Positions 347 to 44,552 of a stretch of 46,907 bases of DNA are shown here, one piece after another (the first letter of the stretch is position 1; every line of letters begins with the position of its first letter). Origin of the DNA: Klebsiella phage YX3973. Under the pieces are notes generated by a model. That model saw only the letters and a program-made list of their open reading frames with translations, was not told the DNA's origin and ran no database searches. The translations under genes and the position numbers were made by a program. The stretch lies in the sequence record MK327140.1. One strand, given 5' to 3'.

Positions 347-386
347 AATCTACACCACCAATCAAAACCTGTCAACATGATATAAT
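347..386. promoter_or_regulatory. Back-to-back promoters upstream of the major tail gene. + strand: extended -10 TGaTATAAT (378-386). - strand: TTGACA (375..370), 17-bp spacer, TAGATT (352..347). The TAGATT lies within a degenerate copy of the 12-mer AATCTACACCAC (347-358).
   Basis: Hexamers read directly; GGAGAGG RBS before ATG 421. Confidence 0.4.
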
Positions 387-420
387 GCGATTGTTTAGCT
401 AAACGGAGAGGATTCTAAAC

Positions 421-1176
421 ATGGCTATTTGTGCAAATGATAACGGCATCATCACGGGTCGCCAGTCGCTCATCGAGCTGGCTGATGGCTGCTGGGATGC
501 TGCGCCAGCAGAGGAAGACTGGAAGTTTTTTGCTCCCATGACCTCAAAAGGCGTCGACTTCAGCCCAAGCACCACCACCTCAGAGGCTGATGATGGCGAT
601 GGCTTTGTCGCGACGCTGGTCACTACCGCAGACCTCACCATTTCCGGTGATTTTGAAGTTCGTAAGGCTGACAAGGCTGATGAGTATGGCGTGCACAACC
701 TCATCAAATACTTTGTCACCGAAGTAAAAGCGCGTCGCCAGCCATCACTGTGGGTGCGTCAAACCACCGGTAATACCGTTGTCGTGGCTTACTGCAACAT
801 TACCGCACTGAGCTACGATGGCGGCACCAACGACATTATCACCGGCTCAGTTGAGTTCAAGCCGTATGATGGCTCTACCGTTGATGTGTCCAGCATCGAA
901 GATTTAACGCTGACTACTGATATCAGCAAAACCCAAAACGTTGCTCATGGCACCGCTCTGACGCTCGGTCCGGTAGTTGCGGCTGGCGGTGTCGAGCCTT
1001 ATACCTACCAATGGTATAAAGGCACTACGCCGATCAGCAGTGCTAATACCGACGCGTTCACCAATACCAATGCCGTCGCAAGTGATGCTGGTACGTACTT
1101 CTGCCGCGTGATGGACTCGGCAACCAGCCATGATTACGTTGACTCAACCAAGTGTGTTGTTACCGTTACGGGATAA
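421..1176 (+). CDS. Major tail (tube) protein with C-terminal Ig-like domain (lambda gpV-like architecture)
   Basis: 251-aa ORF directly upstream of chaperone/tape-measure genes; C-terminal ~90 aa has the Ig-like signature (YxYQWYK..G.Y.C.V) as in gpV/Hoc-type Ig domains; strong RBS. Confidence 0.6.
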   Translation: MAICANDNGIITGRQSLIELADGCWDAAPAEEDWKFFAPMTSKGVDFSPSTTTSEADDGDGFVATLVTTADLTISGDFEVRKADKADEYGVHNLIKYFVTEVKARRQPSLWVRQTTGNTVVVAYCNITALSYDGGTNDIITGSVEFKPYDGSTVDVSSIEDLTLTTDISKTQNVAHGTALTLGPVVAAGGVEPYTYQWYKGTTPISSANTDAFTNTNAVASDAGTYFCRVMDSATSHDYVDSTKCVVTVTG

Positions 1177-1180
1177 AGAA

Positions 1181-1207
1181 AACCCCCGAAAGGGGGTTTA
1201 TTCTGTT
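1181..1207. terminator. Bidirectional rho-independent terminator: stem CCCCC/GGGGG with GAAA loop, T-tracts on both strands
   Basis: aacccccgaaagggggtttattctgttc immediately after the tail gene stop; convergent - strand gene ends at 1198. Confidence 0.6.
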
Positions 1208-1398
1208 CTGACATATCTAAAAAACAACTTATCTTGAGATATCATCTTTAATTTGCCATCTCGCTCCATTCTTCTTGCTATCCTCCGCATGTTACTATGC
1301 GAAGATTTAAATTTATGGACATAAATCCAGCCGTAATATTCAATCATTTCGTTCACATGGCTTTCTTTTTTTATTTTATGAATCGCTCTCATTATCAC
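1198..1398 (-). CDS. Hypothetical small protein (64-66 aa), last gene of the leftward moron cassette
   Basis: ORF track; GTG/ATG start with GAGGAAGG RBS; 4-nt overlap with the upstream small paralogue gene. Confidence 0.4.
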   Translation of the reverse strand: MIMRAIHKIKKESHVNEMIEYYGWIYVHKFKSSHSNMRRIARRMERDGKLKMISQDKLFFRYVRTE

Positions 1399-1547
1399 GC
1401 CTTCCTCGTCTTATTTTTAATCGCCCACAAAATCAGATTAGCCATAAACTCAGATCGCTTTAAGTGAATGGCAATCGCGCAATTAATGTCAATGCGCTGT
1501 CCGGCATAGGCGGATATGACATCAGCATCTGTTTGGTCAACCACCAT
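1395..1547 (-). CDS. Small 50-aa protein, paralogue A (MVVDQTDADVISAYAGQRIDINCAIAIHLKRSEFMANLILWAIKNKTRKA)
   Basis: Below the ORF-track size cut-off; ~70% identical at DNA and protein level to the ORF at 1883..2035; stop overlaps the next start. Confidence 0.4.
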   Translation of the reverse strand: MVVDQTDADVISAYAGQRIDINCAIAIHLKRSEFMANLILWAIKNKTRKA

Positions 1548-1565
1548 TGGTTTTCTCCCGCAACA

Positions 1566-2195: not shown

Positions 2196-2234
2196 AATCT
2201 ACGTCAGCTTTGCACGCCCTGTCAATGGTATAAT
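2196..2234. promoter_or_regulatory. Divergent promoter region. 12-mer AATCTACGTCAG (2196-2207); - strand TTGACA (2225..2220), 18-bp spacer, TAGATT (2201..2196); + strand extended -10 TGgTATAAT (2226-2234). Paralogous to the region at 347-386.
   Basis: Shared CCTGTCAAnnTGnTATAAT block with the region at 347-386. Confidence 0.4.
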
Positions 2235-2262: not shown

Positions 2263-2970
2263 ATGAGACAACGCACACCGCTAACAGAAATCGGAGAAAT
2301 GCGCATCTCCCTGGATGACAAGTCTTTTTTCTTCAAACCATCATTTGCGGCGATGAATGAGCTTGGCTCACCAAAAGAGATTGTCGAGCTGTATGCTACG
2401 CTTAATGGCTATGAATACGCGGCTGTACTTGGCGCCATTCAGTCATTGCCATACGGCGCACAGATTCAGGTGGCAAAAATCCTGTCGCGTCCCGCCTATG
2501 GCAAGAAAGTGCTCAGCGCCGCCTGCCTCATCATGCAGTCCTGTTGCGATGATGATATCTCGGTTCTCATTGGGTCATGGAAGCCGACTCTGCGCGGTGT
2601 GAAGTACGTCACCGGAAGAATGCCAGTAAATGACATTATTATTATTGCTCGCAACCTGATGGAACATGGCATCATCGGAAAGTCTCCGCTCAAGGTTCCT
2701 CAGCGCTCGGAAAACCAAAAGCGCACAACCAGTGAGTTGAGAATGTCGGATTACATCATCTCAGCTCGCACCCATTTCGGAATCACCCGCGAGGAAGCCG
2801 AAGACCTGACCATGACCGAGTATCAGCAGATGATAAAATCAAAATACCCGGAACCGGAAGGCATGACGCGCGAGCAGTATGATGCGTCCTATGAGCGGGC
2901 TAAGCTGAATAAACAGAAACTGAAAGAGAAAGCCGCCAGAAAGGCCGCTAAAAGCAAAGGAGCAAAATAA
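2263..2970 (+). CDS. Putative tail assembly chaperone (call rests on position between major tail and tape-measure genes)
   Basis: 235-aa ORF whose stop overlaps the tape-measure ATG (ATGA); no frameshift product identified. Confidence 0.35.
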   Translation: MRQRTPLTEIGEMRISLDDKSFFFKPSFAAMNELGSPKEIVELYATLNGYEYAAVLGAIQSLPYGAQIQVAKILSRPAYGKKVLSAACLIMQSCCDDDISVLIGSWKPTLRGVKYVTGRMPVNDIIIIARNLMEHGIIGKSPLKVPQRSENQKRTTSELRMSDYIISARTHFGITREEAEDLTMTEYQQMIKSKYPEPEGMTREQYDASYERAKLNKQKLKEKAARKAAKSKGAK

Positions 2971-5900
2971 TGGCAGAAACAGTTGGCGGCATTATCTATG
3001 AGGTTGGCATTGACACATCCCAGCTAGTGGCTGGCAGTCGTGAATTGCAGTCAATGCTAAATGGACTTAGCGGGAACATGGGGCGACTTGAGGCCAGTGT
3101 AAACAGGACAGAGCGCTCTATTGGATCGATGGAACGAACAATGTCCAGCCTTTCTGGCGTTGCCAAGGGATTGTTCGCGGCGCTTTCTGTGCAACAGGTT
3201 GCGAGTTACGCCGATGCCTGGACTGAACTAAATAACAAGGTAGCTAACTCGGTTCGTACTGGAGAGACGCAGACCGAAGTTATGCAGCGGATCTTTGATG
3301 TTTCACAAGCAACCCAGTCATCCCTTAACGGCACGGCGACTCTTTACGCCAGACTTGAGCGAGGAACCAGGGCGTACAACACCAGCGCGGAAGATTTAGT
3401 CCGCCTGACCACTATTATCAACCAGGGGTTTGCAGTATCCGGTGCAACAGCTCAGGAAGCTGAGAACGCAATCATTCAGCTATCACAGGGTATCGCTTCC
3501 GGCGTTCTGCGCGGCGAGGAGTTTAACTCAGTGTCAGAGCAAGGCAGCCGCCTCATGGTAGCTCTGGCTGATTCGATGGGTGTTTCTATCGGTCAGTTGA
3601 GGGCTATGGCCGCTCAGGGGCAGCTAACAACAGACGTTGTAGTTAAGGGGCTTCTGTCACAAGGGGATGCAATCGGCAAAGAATTTGCCAACACCACCGT
3701 CTCAATCGCCAAGGGATTGCAGGTAGCCGGTAACAACGTAACGAAGTTCTTTGGCGAAAACTCGACGGTTAAATCATTTGCAGCAGGGTTCCGAGACTCT
3801 GTCATCACAATAAGTGAGAACCTTGAGACGCTGAGCGGCGCCCTTATCATTGTAGCTGGCATAATGGGAAGTCGGTATGTTGGCGCGCTGGCTATGGCTA
3901 CTGCTGCGAAAATATCAGATATAGCAGCGTCAAGACAACAATTAATGGCCGAGAACCAGCAGGCACAATCAGCGCTTGTGGCTGCAAATTCCGCGCGGAG
4001 GAAGGCGCTGGCTGATAAAGAGGCGGCGCTATCATCTCTGGCGCTTGCTCAGGCTGAATATAACGTAGCAAAAGGCAGCGCAGCCGAGATGCTGGCGCTT
4101 GATGCTCTGGTTGCGGCAAAATCAAGAGCGAGCGCCGCGTCACTATCCCTTGCTCAGGCTGAAAACGCACAGGCTGCCGCATCAGCGAGAGCAGCATCAG
4201 CGGCAAGGGCCGCATCGGTAGGGATTGGACTTGCCAGAGGTGCACTTTCATTGATAGGCGGCCCAGCTGGCGCGGCAATGTTAGCGGCGGGGGCAATATT
4301 TTACTTCTGGCAGAAAGCACAGCAAGCCAGAGAAGAAGCAATCCGCTTTGCCGATAGCCTGGATAAAGTTAACGCCTCAATGAAGGCGATGAACAATACC
4401 CAACTCAGGGGGGTAATTGCCGACGCTAATAAGTCTATTCAGGCACAAGAGGAATATGTAAGGGATCTTGAAGACAGCATTGATAAACTTAAAGGTGAGA
4501 TTGATGACTATACCGCAAGAGGAAAGCTGTTCGGAACAACAATAGAGCAAGGAAACGGGTTACTAAAAATCGCATCAGATAAAACTGATGAACTGAATCA
4601 AAAATCGCGCGACCTTGCGAACGCCAAGGAAAAACTAGCAAGAACTCAGGAAGCCGCATCTGAAGCACGCAGAACCCTTACAAACAACATGCTCACGTCT
4701 ATGGGTGTGCATGACAGCCTGATTGAGAAGGGATCAACGCTTGAAAGGGTGCAGGGCGCTGTAGCAAGAGCATTTGGCCTGACTGCCGATGAGATAAACC
4801 GAGCAAATCAGGCAGGCCAAAACTTCAACCCAAAATCCTTGCAAGTGTCGCCCCCAACAGAAGAAGCTGACAAGATAATCCTCAATCTTGAGGAGCAAAA
4901 CCAACTTTTAAAAATACAGGATGAAAGACAAAGGGCAGTAACAAAGGCGAGAATGGAGGCAGCTAAGGTAACTGATAACCCCAATCAGATAGCCAGAGCT
5001 GCTGAGCTTGCAGGTCAGATATATGATTTAACTGAGGCTGAGAAAGCAAGAGAAAAAGCGCAAAATGATTCTCAATCAGCGGCCCAAAAAGCCGCCACAG
5101 AGCAGGAGAATATCGCCAACAAACTTGAGCAACTGCGGCAAGAATCATTGCTAACAGCAGATAGCACAAGAGAGCTAAGTCGAGAGCAAGCAATACTACA
5201 GGCACAACAATCATTAGGAAAAGGCGCCACAGAGGAGCAAATAAGGCTCGCTGGAGAGTACAAGGCTAAGGCATGGGATAATGCCAACGCGATAAAGGCT
5301 CAGGCAGAGGCGGAGAAACAAAGGGTCGAAGCTGTAAAAGGATTCGCTGCATTAAAATCGCAGACATCACCAATGTTTGCCGTTGAAACAAACTATCAGA
5401 AGGATTTAGCAGCGCTTAATGCTTACGCAGTAGCTTACCCGCAAAAGATAGCGGAGGTTGAGCAGGCCAGAGCAGCAATTGAGGAGCAATACCGCCAGCA
5501 GCGCCTTGATGCCATGTGGCAGGAGTGGAGTCAGCAGAATGCGGCTACGCAGGCGGCTGCTGCTGCATTTGATGCTTTTGGACAAACTGCAAGTAATGCC
5601 TTAACTGGCATCCTGACTGGTTCAATGTCTGTTAGCGAGGCGCTACAGTCAATTGGCAGCACTGTGTTAAACGCCGTGATTAACTCATTCGTTCAGATGG
5701 GCGTGGAGTGGCTTAAATCAGTAATCATGGGACAGGCAGGAATGGCAGCAGCATCTGCCGCAACCGCCGCTCAGGCGGCAGGAATAGCAGCGGCTATGGC
5801 GCCAGCAGCAGCGATGACCTCGCTTGCTACATCTGGAGCTAACGCAATCCCAGCTCAGGCTGGTATTGCTTCTACGGTTGGTGTGGCTAAAGCAATGTCT

Positions 5901-6251
5901 GTTGCCGGGGCATTAAAGAATGGTGGCCCTGCGCAGGCTGGATCAATGTACAGAGTTGGCGAGAACAACCTACCTGAAATCTTCCAGGCCAGCAATGGCA
6001 ATCAGTACATGATACCTGGCGACAACGGAAAGGTTATCAGCAACAAAGACCTTAGCGGCGGTGGCAGTGGTATCATTATTTATAATAATGTCACCAATAA
6101 CAGCAGCGGAGCAACAGCCTCATCAACAGCAAGAGATAATGGTGACGGCTCTGTTACAATTGAGACGATTGTGGCAGATATTAGCGAGGGAGGCCCGATA
6201 GCACAAGCGATCTCCAACCACACCACTGCAACCAGAAGGGCAACAGAATAA
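2970..6251 (+). CDS. Tail tape measure protein
   Basis: 1093 aa, Ala/Gln-rich coiled-coil centre, hydrophobic glycine-rich C-terminal third, C-terminus resembling lambda gpH; position after the chaperone. Confidence 0.85.
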   Translation: MAETVGGIIYEVGIDTSQLVAGSRELQSMLNGLSGNMGRLEASVNRTERSIGSMERTMSSLSGVAKGLFAALSVQQVASYADAWTELNNKVANSVRTGETQTEVMQRIFDVSQATQSSLNGTATLYARLERGTRAYNTSAEDLVRLTTIINQGFAVSGATAQEAENAIIQLSQGIASGVLRGEEFNSVSEQGSRLMVALADSMGVSIGQLRAMAAQGQLTTDVVVKGLLSQGDAIGKEFANTTVSIAKGLQVAGNNVTKFFGENSTVKSFAAGFRDSVITISENLETLSGALIIVAGIMGSRYVGALAMATAAKISDIAASRQQLMAENQQAQSALVAANSARRKALADKEAALSSLALAQAEYNVAKGSAAEMLALDALVAAKSRASAASLSLAQAENAQAAASARAASAARAASVGIGLARGALSLIGGPAGAAMLAAGAIFYFWQKAQQAREEAIRFADSLDKVNASMKAMNNTQLRGVIADANKSIQAQEEYVRDLEDSIDKLKGEIDDYTARGKLFGTTIEQGNGLLKIASDKTDELNQKSRDLANAKEKLARTQEAASEARRTLTNNMLTSMGVHDSLIEKGSTLERVQGAVARAFGLTADEINRANQAGQNFNPKSLQVSPPTEEADKIILNLEEQNQLLKIQDERQRAVTKARMEAAKVTDNPNQIARAAELAGQIYDLTEAEKAREKAQNDSQSAAQKAATEQENIANKLEQLRQESLLTADSTRELSREQAILQAQQSLGKGATEEQIRLAGEYKAKAWDNANAIKAQAEAEKQRVEAVKGFAALKSQTSPMFAVETNYQKDLAALNAYAVAYPQKIAEVEQARAAIEEQYRQQRLDAMWQEWSQQNAATQAAAAAFDAFGQTASNALTGILTGSMSVSEALQSIGSTVLNAVINSFVQMGVEWLKSVIMGQAGMAAASAATAAQAAGIAAAMAPAAAMTSLATSGANAIPAQAGIASTVGVAKAMSVAGALKNGGPAQAGSMYRVGENNLPEIFQASNGNQYMIPGDNGKVISNKDLSGGGSGIIIYNNVTNNSSGATASSTARDNGDGSVTIETIVADISEGGPIAQAISNHTTATRRATE

Positions 6252-16036: not shown

Positions 16037-16045
16037 AGTGTCCTC

Positions 16046-16072: not shown

Positions 16073-16090
16073 CCGTCATTACAATCTAAA

Positions 16091-16612
16091 TCAAAACGGC
16101 ACATCATCACTAAAGTCCATCGTCTGCTCGTTAGACGGTGCAGATTGCTTAGGAGCAGGTGCTGCTTTTGTCTGTTGACGACTGAAAACACCAGCCACAT
16201 AGTTACCAGTTTTTTGCTTATCCTCAGATTCCCAAACGCGCAGAAGAAGAATCATCGGGCGATTTGCAAGCGCACTGGCAATAGCAAAATCAGTCGGCTC
16301 TTTTCCTGATGCCATCAGCTTTCCACCAGCGTTTGCGTCAATTGCTGCAAGCATAGTGATAGCATTGTCTCGCTGCTTTTCTTTAGAGCTAAATACTTTC
16401 AGCTTCTGGAAGATGATGCGATTTTTATACTCACCCTCAAGAATTCGCCACTTAAGATTGAAGAATCGCTCACCTTCCCACTGGTCGTCTTTACATTCTT
16501 CAACGGCAGCAAGAACACGGCTACCATCAGGAATTACTTCGAAACCACCACCCAGCTCAAATTCAGATTTAGATTCAACAGCTTTACCGTCAGAAAGATT
16601 CCAGAAACCCAT
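16091..16612 (-). CDS. SSB-like protein (DUF669-type, Sak4-associated) with SSB-style acidic C-terminal tip ...MDFSDDVPF
   Basis: C-terminal DDVPF tip; sits next to Sak4/Gp157 as in Sak4-type recombination modules. Confidence 0.5.
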   Translation of the reverse strand: MGFWNLSDGKAVESKSEFELGGGFEVIPDGSRVLAAVEECKDDQWEGERFFNLKWRILEGEYKNRIIFQKLKVFSSKEKQRDNAITMLAAIDANAGGKLMASGKEPTDFAIASALANRPMILLLRVWESEDKQKTGNYVAGVFSRQQTKAAPAPKQSAPSNEQTMDFSDDVPF

Positions 16613-16628
16613 TTTTGTGTCCTCTCGA

Positions 16629-22318: not shown

Positions 22319-22347
22319 TTGACGTAGAATCATCGTTGATGTAGATT
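22319..22347 (+). promoter_or_regulatory. Rightward sigma70-like promoter built from two 12-mer copies: TTGACGTAGAAT gives the -35 (TTGACG), a 17-bp spacer follows, and TTGATGTAGATT gives the -10 (TAGATT)
   Basis: Hexamers and spacing read directly; ATG 22378 with GAGGG RBS lies ~25 nt downstream of the predicted start. Confidence 0.55.
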
Positions 22348-24131: not shown

Positions 24132-24205
24132 ATTAACGTCATGGTGTAGAATCTGTTACAATATCGAATAACGGAAAAAAAGCGGAATATTGATGGGTTT
24201 TATCT

Positions 24206-26992: not shown

Positions 26993-27021
26993 AATCTACG
27001 CCATGCTAGAATCTACGTCAA
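26993..27021 (-). promoter_or_regulatory. Leftward sigma70-like promoter made of two 12-mer copies: TTGACG (27021..27016), 17-bp spacer, TAGATT (26998..26993)
   Basis: Read directly on the - strand; ATG 26966 lies ~20 nt downstream of the predicted start. Confidence 0.5.
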
Positions 27022-28327: not shown

Positions 28328-28349
28328 CTACATACCATCCATGCTATAA

Positions 28350-28377
28350 TCCCATCACTACCGATGGGATTTTTTAT
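28350..28377 (+). terminator. Hairpin CCCATC...GATGGG followed by a T-tract
   Basis: cccatcactaccgatgggatttttta. Confidence 0.5.
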
Positions 28378-31933: not shown

Positions 31934-31934
31934 A

Positions 31935-33169: not shown

Positions 33170-33221
33170 TATCTACATCATCGCTTACGATTCAATCTAC
33201 GTCAAGACTATTGTGATAAAA
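33170..33221. promoter_or_regulatory. Divergent regulatory region: degenerate 12-mer TATCTACATCAT (33170-33181), canonical AATCTACGTCAA (33194-33205), + strand extended -10 TGaTAAAAT (33213-33221)
   Basis: Parallel architecture at 44495-44552. Confidence 0.4.
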
Positions 33222-33246
33222 TAATCTGCATCACCGGAGGTAACAA

Positions 33247-35519: not shown

Positions 35520-35548
35520 TGCCGCTCTCCTGTGAAATCATCTTGACT

Positions 35549-35560
35549 AATCTACGTCAA
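35549..35560. promoter_or_regulatory. 12-mer AATCTACGTCAA embedded in the local palindrome ACTAAT...ATTAGT, between divergent gene starts at 35519 and 35614
   Basis: Read directly. Confidence 0.35.
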
Positions 35561-35613
35561 TTAGTCAATACTAGGTGTTGTAGATTATAACATCTTAATG
35601 CGAGTGATGTGGA

Positions 35614-35829: not shown

Positions 35830-35912
35830 AGATGATGACGGGTATCTGCACAACCATAGTCAGGTGCTCAAATATTATGGCGTTCACTACAAAGTGCTGA
35901 TGGAGAGAAAAA

Positions 35913-36561: not shown

Positions 36562-37021
36562 AACGCAAATACTCACGGTGATAGAGCGCTGCGGCGGCGC
36601 AACCAATGCCATGATACGCAAGCAGACTGGCATGACAAACCGAGCCAGCGTTACTGGTTATCTGATTGAGCTTGAGGGCATGGGATTTATTATTAAAGAG
36701 GAAAGCGTAAGCCATGGCAGGCGCTGCTTTAAGTATTTCCTCAATCCCGATAATACCGCGCTTGACCTGGCAATTCAGACATATCTTGAGGCGAATCCCG
36801 GGCGCAAGAGCAAGCAGATAGCGGAGGCTGTCGGCGTCAACTACACCATCCTCAAGGCACGCATGCGCTATCTGGCAAGCATTGGTCAGGTTGATCGTGA
36901 AATGCTTCCCGGCGGCGCATGGAAATATTACTGGCAGGAGATCATCCCGTTTGGCATGAGCCGTGACAGGATGATGTTTGAAAAGTTGCTGGCCGGGGCG
37001 CGCCAGTCATGTGGGCGGTAA
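36551..37021 (+). CDS. DNA-binding protein with two winged-helix-like repeats
   Basis: Two wHTH-like segments (MIRKQTGMTNRASVTGYLIELEGMGFI and QIAEAVGVNYTILKARMRYLASIGQV). Confidence 0.4.
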   Translation: MDFKTQILTVIERCGGATNAMIRKQTGMTNRASVTGYLIELEGMGFIIKEESVSHGRRCFKYFLNPDNTALDLAIQTYLEANPGRKSKQIAEAVGVNYTILKARMRYLASIGQVDREMLPGGAWKYYWQEIIPFGMSRDRMMFEKLLAGARQSCGR

Positions 37022-37284
37022 AGCATAAATCAGGAACCGTGCTGTTTGTCACCAACTGTGAACGCACGGCCAATAATCGTAGAGAGATGGGGTGGATAGT
37101 GGAAGAGCTAACAGCAATAGAGAGATTGAAGAAAATAAATGAAGATAATAAGCGAGTTGTTACGGTAAGTGTTGGCGTTTTAAAGGCAGCGCTTAGCGAG
37201 ATAAAAGCGCACGTAGCCATGAATGGTGAGGGTCTCCTGACCCGCGCTGTTATTAGAGCTTTAGAGGAGAATATTAACAAATGA
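37009..37284 (+). CDS. Hypothetical protein (91 aa)
   Basis: ORF track. Confidence 0.35.
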   Translation: MWAVKHKSGTVLFVTNCERTANNRREMGWIVEELTAIERLKKINEDNKRVVTVSVGVLKAALSEIKAHVAMNGEGLLTRAVIRALEENINK

Positions 37285-37625
37285 AACTACAACTTAACGA
37301 AATCATGGAAGCAACAATCAGCGAACTGGATGACATTGATATGACGCTTGCCTTTGAGATTGAGGCTATCGAGCGTCAGCTTTCTGGCAACCATGATGCA
37401 GGCAGAGTATGGAAAGAGAAGGCCATGAAGGCGCGTGACCATATGAAGCGCACCCGCGCGCTGGTTCGCACTCGCCTTGATAAGCTCTACTACGGCGAAG
37501 AGAGAATGTTGCATGGCGCCATTCTGGCTGAAATCCGCAAAACGATGCCTGTCGGGAAATTCATGGATGCCGTAAACCGCGCAAAAGTTAACTGCGGAAT
37601 GTTAAATAAGAATAGTCCTCAATAA
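37281..37625 (+). CDS. Hypothetical protein (114 aa)
   Basis: ORF track. Confidence 0.35.
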   Translation: MKLQLNEIMEATISELDDIDMTLAFEIEAIERQLSGNHDAGRVWKEKAMKARDHMKRTRALVRTRLDKLYYGEERMLHGAILAEIRKTMPVGKFMDAVNRAKVNCGMLNKNSPQ

Positions 37626-37807
37626 ATTATCTTCCGTGGCTGTTACCTTGCACTCAGGAGGTAGCAGCCATGCCAATCATACTGATATCATTCTTTGCTA
37701 CTCTTTTCGCTTTTACCGCGTCTCCGCTTTACCTTCTCGCGTCCGTTTCGTGGTGCATATTCATGGTGTGTTATAATCCGGGCATAAAGTAAGCGCGGAG
37801 AAAGGTC

Positions 37808-39211
37808 ATGATTGTCAAAATTGGCGACAAGTGGGTCGTTAAATCTAAGGATGGCTCGCACCAGTTTGGCGAGTACGACACCGAAGAGGCGGCGAAAAAG
37901 CGCCTTGCTGAGGTGGAGGCATTCAAGCACATGAATAATAAATTACAGGTTAACATCCTGTACACCATCAACTCGGCCGGCAACATCAGTGAAAAAATCA
38001 TTGATGGTGACCCGCATTATGTCATCAAGAATGTTGTGCCGGTGGTAGATGACATTGTCATGAATGGCGGCCTGTACCCTGGCGATGAGATTAAAAAATC
38101 ATTTCATGGCCTTGATGGTAAGCCGGCGCCATATGACCACCCGAAGATTGACGGTAAATATGTGTCGGCCAACATGACGCGAGCGGCCAATCAGTTCAGT
38201 GTTGGTGCATGGATTGAGAACTCATCTCATGACGGCAGCAAGGCGCTGGTAGACCTTTATATTAACAAGGTGGTAGCTGAGCGATCTGATAAAGGCAGGG
38301 AGTTACTATCGCGTATTGATGGCCTCAAAATTAACGGCGCCGATGCTGAACCTGTTCAGGTGTCTACCGGTTTGTTACTCAACCGCGAGCAGGCATCGGG
38401 AACCTCTAAGGGTAAAAAATATTCCTGGATTGCCCGAAATATGGAGTGGGACCACCTCGCCATTCTTCCTCCGGGTGTGCCTGGGGCGGGAACGCCAGAA
38501 GATGGAGTTGGTATTTTTGCCACCAATGGCGAAGACATTGAGCGTGTTGTAGTTAACCTTGAGGAATCGGCAATGCCAGACGAAAGTGCAAACAAAATCA
38601 AATGGTGGCGGCGTGCCATCAACTACATCACCAGAAATAGCGACCTGTCATTTGATGAGATTGCCGATCAGATACGTGGAAAAATAAAAGATGAGTTATC
38701 CCAGGATAGCTGGCCTTTTGTGTTTGCTGTTTATGATGATAAGTTTGGCGTTGAGATTGATGGCGTCAAGTATATGCAGTCCTACGTTATTATAAATGAT
38801 GTGGTACAATTAGTCGGTGAACGGGTTAAGGCTGTTTATAAGACAGAGCTTGAACCGGTAAAAACAACTCAAGGGGAAATCTCAATGACTAACGAGGAAT
38901 TACAGGCTGTATTAGCCGATGCCCTCAAACCGGTTCAGGAATCGTTGACCGCAGTCAACCAGAAACTGGCCGATGTGGAGGCGCAAAACAAAACTCTGCG
39001 CGACCAGCTGCAAGCCAATGCCGCACAGGAAGAAACCGCAATGCGCGCCGCCATTATGGCTGAGCTGAAGTTGCCGGAATCTGCTGTTAATGCGCTGACT
39101 GGCGAAGCACTGCGTGAAACCTATGCACTCACCAGTAAAGCGGCCCCTATTTCCGGCGGGTTCCAGCCGAACCGCGCCGAAGAAGATTTTGATATGGAGG
39201 CACCTGAATAA
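37808..39211 (+). CDS. Putative head maturation protease / scaffold protein (C-terminal coiled coil)
   Basis: 467 aa directly upstream of the decoration-like and capsid genes; coiled-coil C-terminal ~100 aa. Confidence 0.45.
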
Positions 39212-39684
39212 TGGCTACTATCCGTTATGGCACCATCATCGGCGGCCCGGCCCGCAAAAATGACCCGCAGATTCGTGAAGGCATCATGAAGGCAGCGTTG
39301 AAGCCGGGCGCACTGGTTGACTTCGATACTGCCGATGACAAAATCATCGCACACGCTACCACTGGTGGTCAGGGTTTCCCTTATGTGCTCCAGCATAACT
39401 ACCTCGGTGGTGGTGATGTATCTGAAGATGTTCCCGCTGGCGCTACTGGCATGGCTGTGCAGTGTGAATTTGGCGTCACCTATCACGCACTGGTTGCTAA
39501 AAGCTCCGAATTGAAGAAAGGCACTCCGCTGGCAAGTGATGGCACTGGTGTGCTGAAAGTTGCCGCTAATAAGGAAAATATCCTGTTCTATTCCGATGAA
39601 ACTTATACCGTTGCCTCTGAGGGCGCTGAGCTGGTTGCAGTTCGTCGCGCTGGCAATGCTTCCATTCCTGCTGGAGAAATGTAA
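39211..39684 (+). CDS. Putative head decoration protein (gpD-like)
   Basis: 157 aa, Gly/Ala-rich beta protein between the scaffold and capsid genes. Confidence 0.4.
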
Positions 39685-40757
39685 TGGAAAAGATTATTTT
39701 TACCAAAGACTTGGTAGCCAACTCCGCAGTAGTGGCTGACCAGTGGAAACATCTGACCATCGACCGCAAGATGTTCTGCAATGCAGAGGCTGAGCTGGCG
39801 AAAACCTACGGTGTGAACGCCACCGCGCTGGTAACGAAAGATTACTGGCGCGACGTGGATAACGTCACCACCCGCGTTTTCCGCAACGAAGCTGGTCAGG
39901 ATATGATGGCTGACCTGATGGGCATCGCGGCAAACATCAATATCGGTAAGACTGTAGCAATCAGCCGCATTGCTTCCGATGCTGGTAAGGTCGTCCGCAC
40001 ACTGTCTGGTCAGGAACCGGAAGATTTGGATAAAACTCGCTACGATTACACTGGCGATGTGATTCCAATCTTTAAGACTGGATACAGCCGCGAATGGCGC
40101 GAACTGCTGGGTATGCAATCTGAAGGTTTTGACCCGCTGCTGGATGACCAGGCTAACGTCACCTTCAACCTGCGTTCCGATATGGCGCAGTACCTGCTGA
40201 CCGGCGACCAGACTCTGAACGTGAACGGCGTGTACACTGGTTACGGTATCACCAACCACCCGAACACCATTCAGGTTAACCTGAGCACCGATTCCCTCGG
40301 CCTGAATATCGACCTGCAAACCGCAACGCCAGATGAAATCGTGACCTTCTTCAATCAGGATTTCCAGGCTATTCTGGATGCGCAGAACGTATTTGAGCAG
40401 GTGACTCTGTGGGTTTCCCCGGCAGTGCGCCGCAGCTTCATGCGTCCGTATTCTGATGCTGCTGGCTTTAAAGGTGGCACCGTTGAGCAGTACATCACTC
40501 AGTTCGGCAATGGCCGCATCGGTAAGATTGGCACCAACTTCCTGCTGACTGGCAACCATTTCGTTGGTTACGTTCGCAACGACATGTACATCCGTCCGCG
40601 TGTTGCTCAGCCTGTTTCCACCTATGCGGCAGCCCGCGCCAACCCGCACGATAACTTTAACTTCCTCGTGTGGTCTGCTTTTGGTCTGCAGATTCGTAAG
40701 GATGCTACCGGCAAGTCCAGAGTGTTCAACGGCTACGGCACACAAACTCCGCGGTAA
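39684..40757 (+). CDS. Major capsid protein
   Basis: 357 aa; position; ATGA overlap with the upstream gene; strong terminator downstream. Confidence 0.7.
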   Translation: MEKIIFTKDLVANSAVVADQWKHLTIDRKMFCNAEAELAKTYGVNATALVTKDYWRDVDNVTTRVFRNEAGQDMMADLMGIAANINIGKTVAISRIASDAGKVVRTLSGQEPEDLDKTRYDYTGDVIPIFKTGYSREWRELLGMQSEGFDPLLDDQANVTFNLRSDMAQYLLTGDQTLNVNGVYTGYGITNHPNTIQVNLSTDSLGLNIDLQTATPDEIVTFFNQDFQAILDAQNVFEQVTLWVSPAVRRSFMRPYSDAAGFKGGTVEQYITQFGNGRIGKIGTNFLLTGNHFVGYVRNDMYIRPRVAQPVSTYAAARANPHDNFNFLVWSAFGLQIRKDATGKSRVFNGYGTQTPR

Positions 40758-42315: not shown

Positions 42316-43243
42316 TGCCGTATCCTCTGAGGCGGGCAACGCGCGCCGGGATGTCTTTTCCAAGCGGGAATCCGATTTCTTCAAAGGCTGCTGCAACGCA
42401 CGGATCGCCGCTATGTCCCATTCCACCGGGAACCCCATCAACCATCTGCTGTGTCCAGGCCTCAACTGGCCTGAACTTTCCATCCCGGCATCCGATCCAG
42501 TCAGCATCTGACCAGAAGCCGTGATGCGGATTGGTCCAACCTTCCACACTTCCCGCCCCAGCAGGCTGCTTGTAGGCACGTTCAAGCATTCCTTCCCATC
42601 CTTGTGGTCGCGTGTCGTTGGCGTCGGCCACGCGGCCAGCTTCGCCTGTCCGGGTAGCTTCAGGCATATCTTTCTGTCCTTCCCGCTGTAGCAATGCGTG
42701 CTGCCGGTTGTGTCGTTTACTATTGGTGTCGCCCAGTTGCCGCGCTCCAAAGAACAGCCTGTCTCTTTTGTGCGGGGCACCGACGCTGCCCGCTGGCAAT
42801 ACTGCCGACCCGCAGGCGTAGCCTTTGTCTTCCAAGTTAAGGAATACAAAATCGAGCCAGTGCTTTCCAATTGCTGCCGCAACCTGCTCTCCAAACAGCA
42901 ATTGAGGCTTGCACTCTCTGATGAGCCTGAGAAATGCTGGGGCAAGGTGCCGCTCGTCGTCAAATCCGAGAGACTTACCGGCAACGCTAAACGGCTGGCA
43001 AGGTGGTGATCCTGTCCAGAGCTGAGTGCTTGCTGGTATTCCAGCCAACTGGAGTGCAAGGGGCCACCCTCCGATTCCGGCAAAGAAGTGACACTGTGTA
43101 AATCCTTCCAGGTCTGAAGGGGTGACTTCGGTGATTGATCGTTCATCGACATATCCGTAAGGAATTAGTTTATTGTTAATTAACTCTCGCAGCCACGCCG
43201 CTGCACTTGCGTCCCATTCGTTGTAGTAGCTGGCTGTCATCAC
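42245..43243 (-). CDS. DNA (cytosine-5)-methyltransferase (Dcm-like)
   Basis: Motif I FAGIGG, motif IV SPPCQPFS, motif VI LFGEQV, motif X GYGNAIVP. Confidence 0.8.
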   Translation of the reverse strand: MMTASYYNEWDASAAAWLRELINNKLIPYGYVDERSITEVTPSDLEGFTQCHFFAGIGGWPLALQLAGIPASTQLWTGSPPCQPFSVAGKSLGFDDERHLAPAFLRLIRECKPQLLFGEQVAAAIGKHWLDFVFLNLEDKGYACGSAVLPAGSVGAPHKRDRLFFGARQLGDTNSKRHNRQHALLQREGQKDMPEATRTGEAGRVADANDTRPQGWEGMLERAYKQPAGAGSVEGWTNPHHGFWSDADWIGCRDGKFRPVEAWTQQMVDGVPGGMGHSGDPCVAAAFEEIGFPLGKDIPARVARLRGYGNAIVPQCAAEFIAAFRGAIEDLF

Positions 43244-44055
43244 AGCTTCTCCAGAATAGCCAGGACTTCACTCAACTCAGCGGAAGGAAGGCGCAAAAAT
43301 TCTTCTGTCTCCTGTGCCACATGACCCTCAGCGACAACCATATGGTCTGCTTCTTTCAGCAACTGAATCAGGCGGTCAATCGGCTTAACTTTTTTGGCCT
43401 TGAGCGTTTTAGCCGTCACCTTATCTTTGCCCTGCGCTTTCGCTTCCTCAACGGCGGCATCAATAACGTTAACGGCATCATCGCCATGCTCACGTGCGAC
43501 CGCAACGGCGTTGGCATAGCTGATTTGGCCTGCATTGATACGCTGCTTGATGGCATCAGGTACGTCACCAAGTGACAGGTGCATCTGCACATCAGAAACT
43601 GAGCGACCGACCTTCTTGGCGATTTCTTCATTCGTCCACCCGAACCCTTTGAGGCGCACATAAGCCTTTGCACGCTCAAGCGGGTCGAGTTGCTTGCCCT
43701 GACTTGAAGACACCATGAAGGCGATTTTATCCGCCTCATCGCCGGTGAAGTCTTTGCACTCAATTCGCGCAATTGGCACGCCGCGCTCAATGGCACGCAG
43801 TGCTCCAAGGTAACGATGCTGGCCGTCAAGAATCTTGATGCGCTTTCCGTCGGCATCAGGAATAACAGTTAACGCCGGGATTGGCTGCCCTGATTCCCAA
43901 CACTGCGCGAAGTATTCAACGTGCTGCTCATCGGCTTCGCGGATGTTGTACCCCGGCTCAAGGTAAAGCTGGTCGACAGGGACCTGATAACCTTTGTTGA
44001 CCACGATTCCGCCGCGAGTTTCTTTGTCTGAGTAAATTTTTCCGAGAGATGTCAT
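43240..44055 (-). CDS. ParB N-terminal-domain (ParB/Srx-like nuclease) protein
   Basis: ILDGQHRY motif; GAGGGAAAG RBS before ATG 44055; ATGA overlap with the methylase. Confidence 0.6.
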   Translation of the reverse strand: MTSLGKIYSDKETRGGIVVNKGYQVPVDQLYLEPGYNIREADEQHVEYFAQCWESGQPIPALTVIPDADGKRIKILDGQHRYLGALRAIERGVPIARIECKDFTGDEADKIAFMVSSSQGKQLDPLERAKAYVRLKGFGWTNEEIAKKVGRSVSDVQMHLSLGDVPDAIKQRINAGQISYANAVAVAREHGDDAVNVIDAAVEEAKAQGKDKVTAKTLKAKKVKPIDRLIQLLKEADHMVVAEGHVAQETEEFLRLPSAELSEVLAILEKL

Positions 44056-44062
44056 CTTTCCC

Positions 44063-44179
44063 TCACTTTGATAAACAGATTGCACTGGCAATGGCGAATC
44101 CGATAACGATTAACGCCAGCTTGATTTTGAACTTATCCCACGCCTTCAGGTCTTCTTTTCGTATTTCGTTGCGGATCAT
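44063..44179 (-). CDS. Small 38-aa single-TM peptide
   Basis: GGAGAA RBS; ATGA overlap with the upstream gene; hydrophobic LALIVIGFAIASAI. Confidence 0.3.
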   Translation of the reverse strand: MIRNEIRKEDLKAWDKFKIKLALIVIGFAIASAICLSK

Positions 44180-44475
44180 TTTGATTCTCCGAGTGCTTTT
44201 TTGATAGCTTCTCGTGCGATGGTTATTGCATGCTCTGGCCCATATTCTTCATCATCTGCAACTCTAACTAATAAACCCTTCAACGCTTCCAGTAATTCCG
44301 GAGCAGCGGCAATCAGGTCAGCATCTTCGCGCCGATATACTGTGTCACAAATGCATTCACCGTCAGTGCCGAAAGTCACCTCGAGGTGTACAAGTGCAGG
44401 ATTGTTCCAGTGTTTCCCAATAGTGTTTACACGCCATGGCCCCGGCGTACCTTTGAATTCATTCATCCTCATCAC
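44176..44475 (-). CDS. Hypothetical protein (99 aa), first gene of the leftward accessory operon
   Basis: ORF track. Confidence 0.4.
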   Translation of the reverse strand: MMRMNEFKGTPGPWRVNTIGKHWNNPALVHLEVTFGTDGECICDTVYRREDADLIAAAPELLEALKGLLVRVADDEEYGPEHAITIAREAIKKALGESK

Positions 44476-44494
44476 CTCTAACGTTTATTGTTGT

Positions 44495-44552
44495 TTCTAC
44501 GTCATCACTATAGCGACACCCTCAATCTACGTCAACACTTTATGATAAAATT
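44495..44552. promoter_or_regulatory. Divergent regulatory region: degenerate 12-mer TTTCTACGTCAT (44495-44506), canonical AATCTACGTCAA (44524-44535), + strand extended -10 TGATAAAAT
   Basis: Same architecture as 33170-33221. Confidence 0.4.

What the first reader, a model, noticed from the sequence alone, without database searches (positions are those of the whole stretch)
347..44535. Conserved 12-mer AATCTACGTCAA / TTGACGTAGATT at essentially every divergent intergenic junction
The 12-mer occurs on the + strand at 2196, 27010, 33194, 35549 and 44524, and in reverse orientation at 22319. Degenerate partner copies lie 17-29 bp away at 347, 22336, 26992, 33170 and 44495, and partial copies at 17980 and 29848. 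It is always between a leftward gene and a rightward gene. On the bottom strand it reads TTGACG + TAGATT, a -35-like and a -10-like hexamer fused with no spacer. At 22319-22347 and 26993-27021 two copies are phased so that copy 1 supplies the -35 and copy 2 the -10 with a 17-bp spacer. At 347-386 and 2196-2234 its TAGATT lies 17-18 bp from a perfect TTGACA. At 35549 it sits in a candidate spacer. This looks like a phage-specific promoter/operator module that mainly drives or controls leftward transcription of the moron/accessory operons and the early-right operon. Candidate binders encoded in the window are the Cro-like protein (18054-18296) and the double winged-helix protein (36551-37021).
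Basis: seen in the sequence. Interest (0 to 1): 0.6.

Follow-up and report, generated by a model that had tools for sequence, protein, structure and literature searches.

The report
Shared early-promoter 12-mer of a phage
A 12-base motif, TTGACGTAGATT, marks the start of nearly every early or accessory gene cluster in this virulent Klebsiella phage and about 200 relatives; it most likely forms the core of their host-polymerase early promoters, which is a useful but ordinary kind of regulatory signal.

Summary
AATCTACGTCAA occurs exactly 4 times (0 expected). Twelve copies fit TTGAYGTAGATT within 2 mismatches (1.9 expected), and all lie in the 8% of the window that is non-coding. Every one of the 8 divergent junctions carries a copy, though 17963/17996 are only degenerate.

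The window is a virulent Roufvirus-like Klebsiella siphophage. The motif sits at the same junctions in Salmonella E1, Akira and E. coli Bas79, where the flanking spacers have diverged.

Read as TTGACG+TAGATT, it supplies the -35 or the -10 of sigma70-type promoters for the small-gene and early clusters. Gene-proximal copies end 22-30 nt before the start codon. These promoters lie back-to-back with a second, conserved class of extended -10 promoters (TGnTATAAT, no -35) that serve the structural and lysis genes and do not need the motif.

The whole 12-mer is conserved in either register, and some copies have no partner hexamer. This suggests an extra, unidentified reader, possibly acting at an operator; that is inferred, not shown.

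The Cro-like gene is unique to this window, the MarR-like gene is missing in Akira, and ParB-like is missing in VLCpiS13d.

This is a new member of a known kind, of moderate interest.

The parts
347..358 (-). Motif copy GTGGTGTAGATT used as a -10. With TTGACA at 375-370 (17-bp spacer) it forms a leftward promoter at the junction upstream of the major tail gene.
   Evidence: Conserved as AATCTACACCAC in ZX4, ZCKP8, Bas79, Akira and VLCpiS13d.
2196..2207 (-). Motif copy CTGACGTAGATT used as a -10. With TTGACA at 2225-2220 (18-bp spacer) it forms a leftward promoter for 2038-2166 and the small-gene cluster down to 1198. It ends 29 nt before the start codon.
22319..22347 (+). Two copies 17 bp apart, TTGACGTAGAAT and TTGATGTAGATT. 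Copy 1 gives the -35 and copy 2 the -10 of a rightward promoter for the small genes from 22378 on. This is the only junction where the motif points rightward.
   Evidence: The same arrangement is present in E1, Bas79 and Akira.
24141..24152 (+). Copy ATGGTGTAGAAT lying in the spacer of TTAACG-18-TGtTACAAT, just after a terminator and upstream of gene 24206-24622. The syntenic gene is annotated terminase small subunit in Akira and VLCpiS13d.
26993..27021 (-). Two copies 17 bp apart, TTGACGTAGATT (27021-27010) and ATGGCGTAGATT (27004-26993). They form a complete leftward promoter for 26676-26966. The proximal copy ends 26 nt before the start codon.
33170..33205 (-). Distal copy TTGACGTAGATT (33205-33194) gives the -35 for GATGAT (33182-33177). 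Proximal copy ATGATGTAGATA (33181-33170) overlaps the -10/+1 region and ends 22 nt before the start codon. Together they form the leftward promoter for 32857-33147.
   Evidence: In E1, Bas79 and Akira the second copy is inverted instead of direct.
35543..35592 (.). Composite control region between the clusters 35519<- and ->35614. It holds an exact copy at 35549-35560 (bottom strand) flanked by the inverted TTGACTAA/TTAGTCAA; an opposed copy GTGTTGTAGATT at 35575-35586 (+); and a leftward extended -10, TGTTATAAT, at 35592-35584.
44494..44535 (-). Distal copy TTGACGTAGATT (44535-44524) gives the -35 for TATAGT (44512-44507). Proximal copy ATGACGTAGAAA (44505-44494) lies at about +1 and ends 27 nt before the start codon. 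This is the leftward promoter for the operon 44466<- that includes the ParB-like and methylase genes.
   Evidence: The surrounding 81-nt block is conserved in 202 phage records.
17963..18007 (.). Degenerate hits AAGATACGTCAA (17963, +) and TTGACGAAAATT (17996, +). These are probably ordinary divergent -35 elements of the swapped-in replication module, not true family members.
16083..16094 (-). Possible copy TTGATTTAGATT between two leftward genes, upstream of the terminator hairpin that precedes the helicase gene.
378..386 (+). Extended -10 promoter TGATATAAT (no -35) for the major tail gene. It belongs to the second, 'late' promoter class that lies back-to-back with motif promoters.
2226..2234 (+). 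Extended -10 promoter TGGTATAAT for the tail gene block, directly abutting the leftward TTGACA.
33214..33222 (+). Extended -10 promoter TGATAAAAT for the lysis genes. Its hexamer starts 11 nt after the motif.
44543..44551 (+). Extended -10 promoter TGATAAAAT for the head-tail connector genes. Its hexamer starts 10 nt after the motif.
28342..28350 (+). Extended -10 promoter TGCTATAAT for the portal gene, with no 12-mer nearby. It overlaps the terminator hairpin at 28348-28371.
37769..37777 (+). Extended -10 promoter TGTTATAAT for the capsid gene block, with no 12-mer nearby.

Best explanation
The 12-mer, read as TTGAYG+TAGATT, is the signature of this phage lineage's sigma70-type (-35/-10) promoters. 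These drive the early and accessory gene clusters: small genes of unknown function, the ParB/methylase/RusA cluster and, in relatives, the replication genes.

The motif is used in two registers. A gene-proximal copy provides the -10 (TAGATT). Its -35 is either a plain TTGACA 17-18 bp upstream or the TTGACG of a second copy placed exactly 17 bp upstream. Elsewhere the TTGACG of a copy is the -35 for a different -10 (TATAGT, GATGAT).

These promoters sit back-to-back with, and partly overlap, a second promoter class: extended -10 (TGnTATAAT or TGaTAAAAT, no -35). That class serves the structural and lysis genes and does not depend on the motif.

Shown here: the presence, enrichment, placement, geometry and cross-genus conservation of the motif.

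Inferred: that host RNA polymerase starts transcription there, and that the two classes correspond to early and late expression.

Also inferred, at roughly even odds: something besides sigma70 reads the whole 12-mer, because it is conserved whichever half is used. The likeliest such reader is a protein that shuts the early promoters off. Its identity is unknown.
For: Enrichment and placement:
- 4 exact copies against 0 expected.
- 12 family copies against 1.9 expected, all in the 7.9% non-coding DNA.
- Every divergent junction is occupied.
- Orientation always follows the adjacent small-gene cluster, including the single rightward case at 22319.

Promoter geometry:
- TTGACG-17-TAGATT at 22319 and 27021.
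- TTGACA-17/18-TAGATT at 375 and 2225.
- TTGACG-17-TATAGT at 44535 and TTGACG-17-GATGAT at 33205 (sequence).
- Proximal copies end 22-30 nt before the start codon at 7 of 7 junction promoters, leaving room for a start site and a ribosome-binding site (for 35575 the distance is to the ATG at 35614).

Conservation:
- The same copies are present at the same junctions in KpV2811, ZX4, ZCKP8, E1, Bas79, Akira and VLCpiS13d, while the spacers vary.
- Information content drops to zero outside the 12 positions.
- The 81-nt block around 44524 is conserved in 202 records from Salmonella, Klebsiella, Escherichia and Shigella phages.

Lineage specificity: the foreign replication module 12678-21696 has only degenerate copies.

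A separate late class: TGnTATAAT occurs 6 times against 1.6 expected, and all 6 are intergenic. It is conserved upstream of the portal, coat and major tail genes in nearly every genome compared, and as TGnTAnAAT variants upstream of the terminase small subunit gene. At 28342, 29782 and 37769 no 12-mer is nearby.

A second reader:
- In -35-type copies the unused TAGATT half differs at 2 of 12 positions between the window and E1, and at 0 of 12 against Bas79. The next 11 spacer bases differ at 12 of 22 (read).
- The proximal copies at 33170 and 44494 lack the T at the last -10 position yet are conserved.
- Many copies have no partner hexamer at 16-18 bp.
- The second copy at the lysis junction is direct in one clade and inverted in the other.

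A parallel case: phage 9NA, which has the same genome layout, carries 11 copies of its own junction motif AATTCTTGACRGATTAC, again a -35 plus a conserved extension.
Against: No transcription start sites, RNA data or binding data exist for this phage group in the literature I could search.

Generic sigma70 consensus scans find no more promoter-like sites than shuffled sequence does (31 against 34.6; 36 against 31.6). Hexamer matches alone are therefore weak evidence.

TAGATT is a sub-optimal -10, and its near-invariance is not what sigma70 alone would select.

Several conserved copies (35549, 35575, and the 24-bp-spaced pair at the helicase/primase junction of relatives) have no -35 at all.

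The early/late assignment rests on gene function only.

No candidate second reader passes a presence/absence test.
Confidence: 0.6

Rival explanations
1. The 12-mer is primarily a dispersed, asymmetric operator for a phage-encoded (or host) DNA-binding protein. This protein switches the early promoters off, and may relieve their interference with the overlapping late promoters. The resemblance to -35 and -10 hexamers would then be secondary, arising because the operator overlaps promoter elements. This overlaps with the best explanation; the difference is which role comes first.
For: The whole 12-mer is conserved whichever half is used.

Copies occur at the -35, in the spacer (35549; 24141), at the -10 and at about +1 (33170, 44494).

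Pairs occur at start-to-start spacings of 10, 17, 21, 23, 24 and 29 bp, and either direct or inverted.

Relative to the conserved promoter upstream of the terminase small subunit gene, the copy sits in different places and orientations in the window, Bas79 and VLCpiS13d.

Orphan copies exist.
Against: No binder has been identified. MarR-like is absent in Akira, ParB-like is absent in VLCpiS13d and Cro-like is present only in this window, yet the motif persists in all these phages.

Pfam scans of 50 proteins found no other regulator.

The tight 22-30 nt distance to start codons and the exact 17-bp phasing are promoter properties.

The phage appears to be virulent, so it has no immunity repressor of the kind that uses such operators in L5 or P1.
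Confidence: 0.3
2. The motif is an activator box for the rightward structural-gene promoters. It would replace their missing -35, as a MotA box does at T4 middle promoters, or act as a class II activator site.
For: At 27010, 33194 and 44524 the motif ends 10-11 nt before the -10 hexamer of a rightward extended -10 promoter, which places it at about -34 to -23. The equivalent distance is 11-12 nt in E1 and Bas79. At 347 and 2196 the distance is 21-22 nt, and at the E1 site orthologous to 2196 it is 31 nt. These distances differ by roughly whole helical turns.
Against: Extended -10 promoters of the same class, equally conserved, have no motif at all at 28342, 29782 and 37769.

The motif points the other way at 22319, where it matches a complete rightward -35/-10 promoter.

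Distances of 10, 21 and 31 nt are not one fixed activator position.

No MotA- or AsiA-like protein was detected in 50 proteins scanned.
Confidence: 0.06
3. One reading: the motif is the operator of the Cro-like protein (18054-18296) or of the MarR-like winged-helix protein (36551-37021).
For: Both have helix-turn-helix signatures. For the Cro-like protein: YdaS_toxin 1.7e-18 and P22_Cro 1.1e-11. For the MarR-like protein: MarR/HTH_24 hits below threshold, and phrog_1687 'MarR family' 1e-49. MarR-like homologues are confined to the same phage group that has the motif (149 records).
Against: The Cro-like gene has no homologue in 7 motif-bearing relatives.

The MarR-like protein is 32-36% identical across clades that share an identical motif. 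It is deleted in Akira, which retains at least 14 copies.
Confidence: 0.04
4. The motif is not transcriptional. It would instead be a recombination boundary sequence for module exchange, a homing-endonuclease or nicking site, or a ParB/partition site.
For: Gene content of the leftward clusters varies between relatives while the junctions stay constant. The phages are rich in HNH endonucleases. A genuine ParB/Spo0J/KorB-family protein is encoded (Spo0J 1.4e-11).
Against: Twelve bases are too short for homologous exchange.

The site is asymmetric, unlike parS, OB or NBS sites, and it persists in VLCpiS13d, which lacks ParB.

Its orientation tracks the direction of transcription, and its distance to start codons is fixed.
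Confidence: 0.03

Closest known systems
Lineage-specific early promoter families of virulent phages read by host sigma70 RNA polymerase (for example the T7 A1-A3 and T5 early promoters; from general knowledge). Also the junction motif of Salmonella phage 9NA found here.
   Same: Many near-identical strong -35/-10 promoters are spread over one genome, each at the head of an early gene cluster. Conservation extends beyond the two hexamers. 9NA has 11 copies of AATTCTTGACRGATTAC at the same kind of divergent junction.
   Different: Here the -35-like and -10-like hexamers are fused into a single 12-mer, and that 12-mer is used in either register. The 9NA motif lacks the 'TA' that creates TAGATT and is used only as a -35.
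Stoperators and operators of mycobacteriophage L5 repressor gp71, and the asymmetric C1 operators of phage P1 (from general knowledge).
   Same: A short asymmetric site that includes a -35-like hexamer occurs in many copies dispersed through the genome in intergenic positions. Its orientation is tied to the direction of transcription, and it overlaps promoters.
   Different: Those belong to temperate phages and have an identified immunity repressor. This phage appears virulent, no cognate binder was found, and none of the 12 window copies lies inside my gene calls.
Two-class promoter strategies in which -35-dependent promoters are switched off while extended -10 promoters stay active (T4 AsiA; Thermus phage P23-45 gp39; from general knowledge).
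   Same: One class has a consensus -35. The other has TGn plus a -10 and no -35, and lies in front of the structural genes.
   Different: No anti-sigma factor was identified, and the timing has not been measured. In P23-45 the early genes use a phage polymerase, whereas here they look sigma70-dependent.
The phi29 p4 switch at the divergent early A2b and late A3 promoters, and lambda OR (PR/PRM) (from general knowledge).
   Same: Early and late promoters lie back-to-back and share a short control region where a single bound protein could repress one and favour the other.
   Different: The p4 and CI sites are inverted repeats bound by dimers of known proteins. Here the site is asymmetric, its binder is unknown, and the late promoters also exist without it.

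Membership tests
sigma70 -35/-10 promoter | A TTGACA-like hexamer, a 16-18 bp spacer, and a TATAAT-like hexamer with A at position 2 and T at position 6. | tested here: met
   Met at 375-347, 2225-2196, 22319-22347, 27021-26993, 33205-33177 and 44535-44507 (sequence). Not met for the copies at 35549 and 35575.
sigma70 -35/-10 promoter | Located upstream of, and oriented toward, a gene at a distance that allows a leader and a ribosome-binding site. | tested here: met
   Proximal copies end 22-30 nt before the start codon at 7 junction promoters.
sigma70 -35/-10 promoter | Transcription starts 5-9 nt downstream of the -10, and the site is bound by the holoenzyme. | not testable with these tools
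   No RNA or biochemical data were found for this phage group.
Extended -10 promoter (the partner class on the opposite strand) | A TGn immediately upstream of the -10 hexamer, with no recognisable -35. | tested here: met
   TGnTATAAT at 378, 2226, 28342, 29782, 37769 and, on the minus strand, 35592. That is 6 against 1.6 expected. TGATAAAAT lies at 33214 and 44543. The class is conserved across the clades compared.
Dispersed asymmetric repressor operators (L5 gp71 stoperators, P1 C1 operators) | A non-palindromic site in many copies across the genome, with orientation tied to the direction of transcription. | tested here: met
   12 copies in the window, with orientation following the adjacent cluster. 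The site is not palindromic beyond its ACGT core.
Dispersed asymmetric repressor operators (L5 gp71 stoperators, P1 C1 operators) | A cognate repressor is encoded by the phage and co-occurs with the sites. | tested here: not met
   Each of the three annotated DNA-binding proteins is missing from at least one phage that keeps the motif. No other regulator was found in 50 proteins scanned.
Dispersed asymmetric repressor operators (L5 gp71 stoperators, P1 C1 operators) | A temperate life style with immunity. | tested here: not met
   No integrase or CI-type repressor appears in the annotation of the relatives or in my scans.
T4-type MotA-box middle promoter | An activator box at a fixed position centred near -30 that replaces the -35, together with a sigma70 -10. 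| tested here: not met
   The distance from the motif to the rightward -10 hexamer is 10-12, 21-22 or 31 nt, and three promoters of the class have no box.
T4-type MotA-box middle promoter | MotA and AsiA homologues are encoded. | tested here: inconclusive
   No Pfam hit among the 50 proteins scanned. Not every ORF was scanned, and small anti-sigma proteins are hard to recognise by sequence.
ParB/KorB/Noc binding site (parS, OB, NBS) | A palindromic site of about 13-16 bp, bound by a ParB-family dimer encoded in the same genome. | tested here: not met
   The motif is asymmetric. The ParB-family protein is real, but VLCpiS13d lacks it and keeps at least 14 copies.

The most novel reading that the evidence does not exclude
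The 12-mer is a bifunctional 'toggle' element of a virulent phage. Early in infection, host sigma70 reads its TTGACG or TAGATT halves to fire the early clusters. Later, an unidentified small core protein (for example the HTH-like 79-residue product of 27056-27295) or a host factor binds the whole asymmetric 12-mer at all junctions at once. That binding silences the early promoters and frees the overlapping extended -10 late promoters on the other strand. This would be a genome-wide dispersed operator system, of the kind known from temperate phages L5 and P1, working instead as the early-to-late switch of a lytic phage family. Phage 9NA would carry a related 'extended -35' version.
Probability: 0.25. 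Interest if true: 0.6.

Novelty: new member of a known kind. Interest (0 to 1): 0.35.

Why it matters
The motif gives a simple, testable transcription map for a large and therapeutically relevant group of Klebsiella, Salmonella and E. coli siphophages (Roufvirus, Skatevirus, Macdonaldcampvirus, Akiravirus). I found no published regulatory information for this group.

About ten motif promoters serve the early and accessory clusters. About ten extended -10 promoters serve the virion and lysis genes. The two sets are often placed back-to-back.

The map marks which small unknown genes are probably expressed first, as host take-over candidates. It also provides compact natural promoters for phage engineering. 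And it defines a clean experiment to find whatever switches this family from early to late transcription: mutate the half of the 12-mer that a given promoter does not use.

Tried and rejected
- Candidate binders by presence/absence. The Cro-like gene is window-specific. MarR-like is lost in Akira. ParB-like is lost in VLCpiS13d. All three are rejected as obligatory readers.

- Structure of the MarR-like protein. The model has pLDDT 57 and is unusable. Sequence search against solved structures found nothing.

- Structure of the core 79-residue protein 27056-27295. The model has pLDDT 78 and a tri-helical HTH-like fold. The nearest PDB neighbours are DNA-binding HTH domains, but none is significant (best E = 0.4). 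It remains only a lead.

- Pfam and PHROG scans of 50 proteins for further regulators, or for MotA/AsiA-like proteins, found none.

- A scan of IMG/VR for the 14-mer TTGACGTAGATTGA gave mostly unrelated contigs, as expected by chance in so large a collection, and was uninformative.

- The search for related loci with the MarR-like protein returned only close relatives. These were useful for the conservation profile but not for covariation.

- Whole-genome k-mer counting was swamped by coding repeats.

- Literature. No paper in the library contains the motif as a phage element. I found no promoter or transcriptome study of these genera. The 9NA-like genomics paper (J Virol 2019) is not held.

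- I compared the motif from memory with E. coli transcription-factor consensus sites (FNR, CRP, DnaA, NarL, MetJ, IHF and others) and found no convincing match. This was not a database test.

- Activator-box reading for the late promoters: rejected, see the rival explanations.

Full report
**What the window is**

Megablast places the window among Klebsiella siphophages of the KpV2811 / ZX4 / BUCT541 / ZCKP8 / pIS4-A group (Roufvirus-like). Identity is 85-97% over about half of its length. More distant DNA matches go to Salmonella and E. coli phages of the E1 (Macdonaldcampvirus), Skate, seszw and Akira types.

The annotations of these relatives, and my own gene map, give one layout:
- Virion and lysis genes run rightward: major tail 421-1176; tape measure 2970-6251; terminase 25231-26655; portal 28387-29781; lysis 33247-34392; capsid genes 37808-40757; head-tail genes 44697-46617.
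- They are interrupted by leftward clusters of small unknown genes and DNA-metabolism genes.
- Two rightward runs of small genes also occur, at 22378-24622 and 35614-37625.
- I found no integrase or CI-type repressor, and the group is treated as virulent small siphoviruses.

**Checking the observation**

The exact 12-mer AATCTACGTCAA occurs four times, at 27010, 33194, 35549 and 44524, all on the + strand. None of 100 shuffles contained it. The copies at 22336, 26993, 33170 and 44494 are real degenerate partners. The copy at 347 stands alone. Nothing lies at 17980; the nearest hits are 17963 and 17996, each with 2 mismatches.

I then used the consensus that emerges from all copies, TTGAYGTAGATT. 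The window holds 12 copies against 1.9 ± 1.5 in 200 dinucleotide shuffles. All 12 lie in the 7.9% of the window that is non-coding in my gene map. The core GTAGATT alone occurs 11 times against 4.3 expected, and 10 of the 11 are intergenic. All eight leftward/rightward junctions carry at least one copy. At 17920-18053 the copies are only degenerate.

**Conservation**

The motif is a family feature, not a peculiarity of this genome. KpV2811, ZX4, ZCKP8, Salmonella E1, E. coli Bas79, Salmonella Akira and Klebsiella VLCpiS13d carry it at the orthologous junctions.

Alignments of five junctions show that the 12-mer, the partner hexamers and the ribosome-binding regions are held, while the spacers between them vary. 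Pooling copies from the window, E1 and Bas79, information content is high over exactly the 12 positions and about zero on either side. That scan also picks up some chance hits inside genes. The 81-nt non-coding block around 44524 is at least 80% identical in most of 202 phage records: 126 Salmonella, 44 Klebsiella, 20 Escherichia, 4 Shigella and others.

The window's replication and recombination module (12678-21696) has no homologue in any of the seven relatives. It carries only the degenerate 17963/17996 hits. This is what one expects if the motif belongs to the lineage's own regulatory system and not to generic promoter requirements.

**Anatomy on the strand where the motif reads TTGACGTAGATT**

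*(a) Use as a -10.* TAGATT is preceded at 17-18 bp by a perfect TTGACA at 375-347 and at 2225-2196.

*(b) Phased pairs.* At 22319-22347 and 27021-26993, two copies start 17 bp apart. Copy 1 gives TTGACG as the -35 and copy 2 gives TAGATT as the -10, with a 17-bp spacer.

*(c) Use as a -35.* TTGACG pairs with TATAGT at 44535-44507 and with GATGAT at 33205-33177.

The gene-proximal copy ends 29, 30, 26, 22, 29, 27 and 27 nt before the start codon at the seven junction promoters (with 35614 taken as the start for 35575). This is the spacing expected for a -10 followed by a short leader with a ribosome-binding site. Orientation always follows the adjacent small-gene or early cluster. That includes the one rightward case, at 22319, which heads the rightward small genes 22378 onward.

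**The opposite strand carries a different promoter class**

Upstream of the structural and lysis genes there are extended -10 elements without any -35:

| Element | Position | Gene(s) served |
|---|---|---|
| TGATATAAT | 378 | major tail |
| TGGTATAAT | 2226 | tail block |
| TGCTATAAT | 28342 | portal |
| TGATATAAT | 29782 | HNH insert |
| TGATAAAAT | 33214 | lysis |
| TGTTATAAT | 37769 | capsid block |
| TGATAAAAT | 44543 | head-tail genes |
| TGtTACAAT | 24154 | gene 24206-24622 (syntenic with terminase small subunit genes in Akira and VLCpiS13d) |

TGNTATAAT occurs 6 times against 1.6 expected, and all six are intergenic. These elements are conserved in nearly all the genomes compared.

Three of them (28342, 29782, 37769) have no 12-mer nearby. 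The distance from the 12-mer to the rightward -10 hexamer is 10-11 nt at 27010, 33194 and 44524; 21-22 nt at 347 and 2196; and 31 nt at the E1 site orthologous to 2196. The late promoters therefore do not depend on the motif, and I reject the idea that it is an activator box for them.

The two classes are often back-to-back and overlapping, so RNA polymerase can probably occupy only one at a time. A consensus -35 class for early genes and an extended -10 class for late genes is a layout known from T4 (AsiA) and Thermus phage P23-45 (gp39). That comparison comes from general knowledge. The temporal assignment here is inferred from gene functions only.

**What sigma70 alone does not explain**

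- *The unused half is conserved.* In the -35-type copies at 33194 and 44524, the unused half TAGATT differs between the window and E1 at 2 of 12 positions, and from Bas79 at 0 of 12. The next 11 spacer bases differ at 6/11 and 6/11 (sequences). In -10-type copies the unused half keeps the pattern nTGryG.
- *The -10 is nearly invariant.* The -10 is almost always TAGATT, a sub-optimal hexamer. The late-class -10s, by contrast, drift between TATAAT, TAAAAT, TACAAT and TAGAAT at the same site in different phages.
- *Some proximal copies cannot be -10s.* The copies at 33170 (TAGATA) and 44494 (TAGAAA) lack the T at the last -10 position. They sit at about +1 of a complete upstream promoter, yet they are conserved in all clades.
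- *Some copies have no partner.* Several conserved copies have no partner hexamer at 16-18 bp: 35549, 35575, and the 24-bp-spaced pair at the helicase/primase junction of relatives.
- *Some copies lie in spacers.* At 35549 the copy lies in the spacer of TTGACT-18-AATACT, between inverted TTGACTAA/TTAGTCAA, and faces an opposed copy that overlaps a leftward TGTTATAAT. At 24141 a copy lies in the spacer of the promoter upstream of 24206-24622.
- *Arrangement varies.* Pairs occur at 10, 17, 21, 23, 24 and 29 bp. At the lysis junction the second copy is direct in the Klebsiella clade and inverted in E1, Bas79 and Akira.

These are the properties of a protein-binding site that overlaps promoters. 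I therefore think a second reader of the whole 12-mer is about as likely as not. This is inference.

Pfam and PHROG scans of 50 proteins recognise only three DNA-binding regulators:
- the Cro/YdaS-like protein (18054-18296);
- the MarR-like protein (36551-37021; Pfam hits below threshold, phrog_1687);
- a genuine ParB/Spo0J/KorB-family protein (43240-44055; Spo0J 1.4e-11).

None passes a presence/absence test:
- The Cro-like gene is unique to this window.
- The MarR-like protein is 32-36% identical between clades with an identical motif. It is reduced to a 23-residue remnant in Akira, which keeps at least 14 copies.
- The ParB-like protein is well conserved (81%) but absent from VLCpiS13d, which also keeps at least 14 copies.

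One of these is the 79-residue product of 27056-27295. It models with reasonable confidence (pLDDT 78) as a three-helix HTH-like domain, but it has no significant structural match. It is only a lead.

**A parallel in phage 9NA**

Salmonella phage 9NA has the same alternating genome layout and a ParB-like protein 32% identical to the window's. It carries 11 copies (0.3 expected) of its own junction motif, AATTCTTGACRGATTAC. This again is a -35 hexamer followed by a conserved 'GATT' extension, but without the 'TA' that makes TAGATT in the present lineage.

This suggests that lineage-specific early-promoter signatures extending past the -35 are common in these small virulent siphophages. The fused -35/-10 12-mer would then be one variant of that theme.

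**Verdict**

- The sequence observation is confirmed and highly non-random.
- The promoter interpretation is well supported by geometry, placement and conservation, but it is not proven without mapped transcription starts.
- The operator interpretation is plausible and unproven.

In kind, this is a lineage-specific phage promoter or regulatory motif, which is a known category. I found no description of this particular motif in the searchable literature. I rate it a new member of a known kind, of moderate interest.

Noticed in passing
window 13130-16036 (-): The 968-residue DEAD/ResIII helicase carries an intein: a Hint domain at residues 35-126 and a LAGLIDADG homing endonuclease at 253-322, ahead of the helicase motifs.
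   Followed up: partly
window 12678-21696: The whole replication and recombination module has no homologue in 7 otherwise close relatives, so it is a mosaic module swap. It comprises an SSB-position gene, the intein-bearing helicase, DUF669, Gp157, a Sak4-like ATPase, a Cro/YdaS-like gene and a Prim-Pol/PriCT-2 primase of 777 residues.
   Followed up: partly
window 21697-22377: A 681-bp AT-rich non-coding stretch contains a perfect 22-nt inverted repeat (21938-21959 / 22006-22027, 46 nt apart), three CTAAATGCCA/TGGCATTTAG copies, and three 11-bp-phased GCATTTAAAAA units at 22080-22123. It may be an origin, pac site or centromere-like region belonging to the swapped-in module.
   Followed up: partly
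window 28342-28376: The portal promoter TGCTATAAT overlaps a terminator hairpin (28348-28371) followed by a T-run, and the arrangement is conserved in nearly all the genomes compared. Transcripts arriving from upstream would terminate there, while transcripts started at this promoter would lack the 5' arm of the hairpin. It looks like a built-in terminator/promoter insulator.
   Followed up: partly
window 378, 2226, 24154, 28342, 29782, 33214, 37769, 44543 (+) and 35592-35584 (-): A coherent class of extended -10 promoters (TGnTATAAT or TGaTAAAAT, no -35) lies in front of the structural and lysis genes. It is conserved across the Klebsiella, Salmonella and E. coli clades.
   Followed up: yes
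window 36101-36328 (+): A 75-residue protein (DUF7301) with 24 Lys+Arg, including the run KRRRPNRKRDYRRDR. This is an arginine-rich motif of the kind seen in N-type antiterminators or nucleic-acid chaperones.
   Followed up: no
window 27056-27295 (+): A 79-residue acidic protein found in all 8 genomes compared. It models (pLDDT 78) as a three-helix HTH-like domain. Its nearest PDB neighbours are DNA-binding HTH domains, but none is significant.
   Followed up: partly
window 29782-30781: A small ORF (29876-30052) and a 230-residue ORF (30089-30781) are inserted between the portal and head-morphogenesis genes. The syntenic gene is annotated HNH endonuclease in ZCKP8. The insert has its own TGATATAAT at the portal stop codon and a partial motif prefix, AATCTACG, at 29848. 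It is absent from ZX4 and KpV2811.
   Followed up: no
L165 (Salmonella phage 9NA), e.g. 984, 2837, 5687, 9320, 12861, 21419, 40179, 45630, 47421: 9NA has 11 copies of its own junction motif, AATTCTTGACRGATTAC (0.3 expected). It is an A/T-rich stretch, then a -35, then a conserved GATTAC, found at divergent and some co-directional junctions.
   Followed up: partly
window leftward clusters 1198-2166, 31739-33147, 34416-35519: In each leftward cluster the promoter-proximal first gene (2038-2166, 32857-33147, 35319-35519) is conserved in all 8 genomes, while the genes behind it are mostly variable. The pattern is a conserved first gene followed by exchangeable cargo.
   Followed up: partly
window 1-346 and 46827-46907: The leftward promoter at 375-347 is followed by about 165-400 nt without a convincing gene. 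The next well-supported leftward ORF is 46641-46826, reached across the window ends. This may be a long leader or a small RNA.
   Followed up: no
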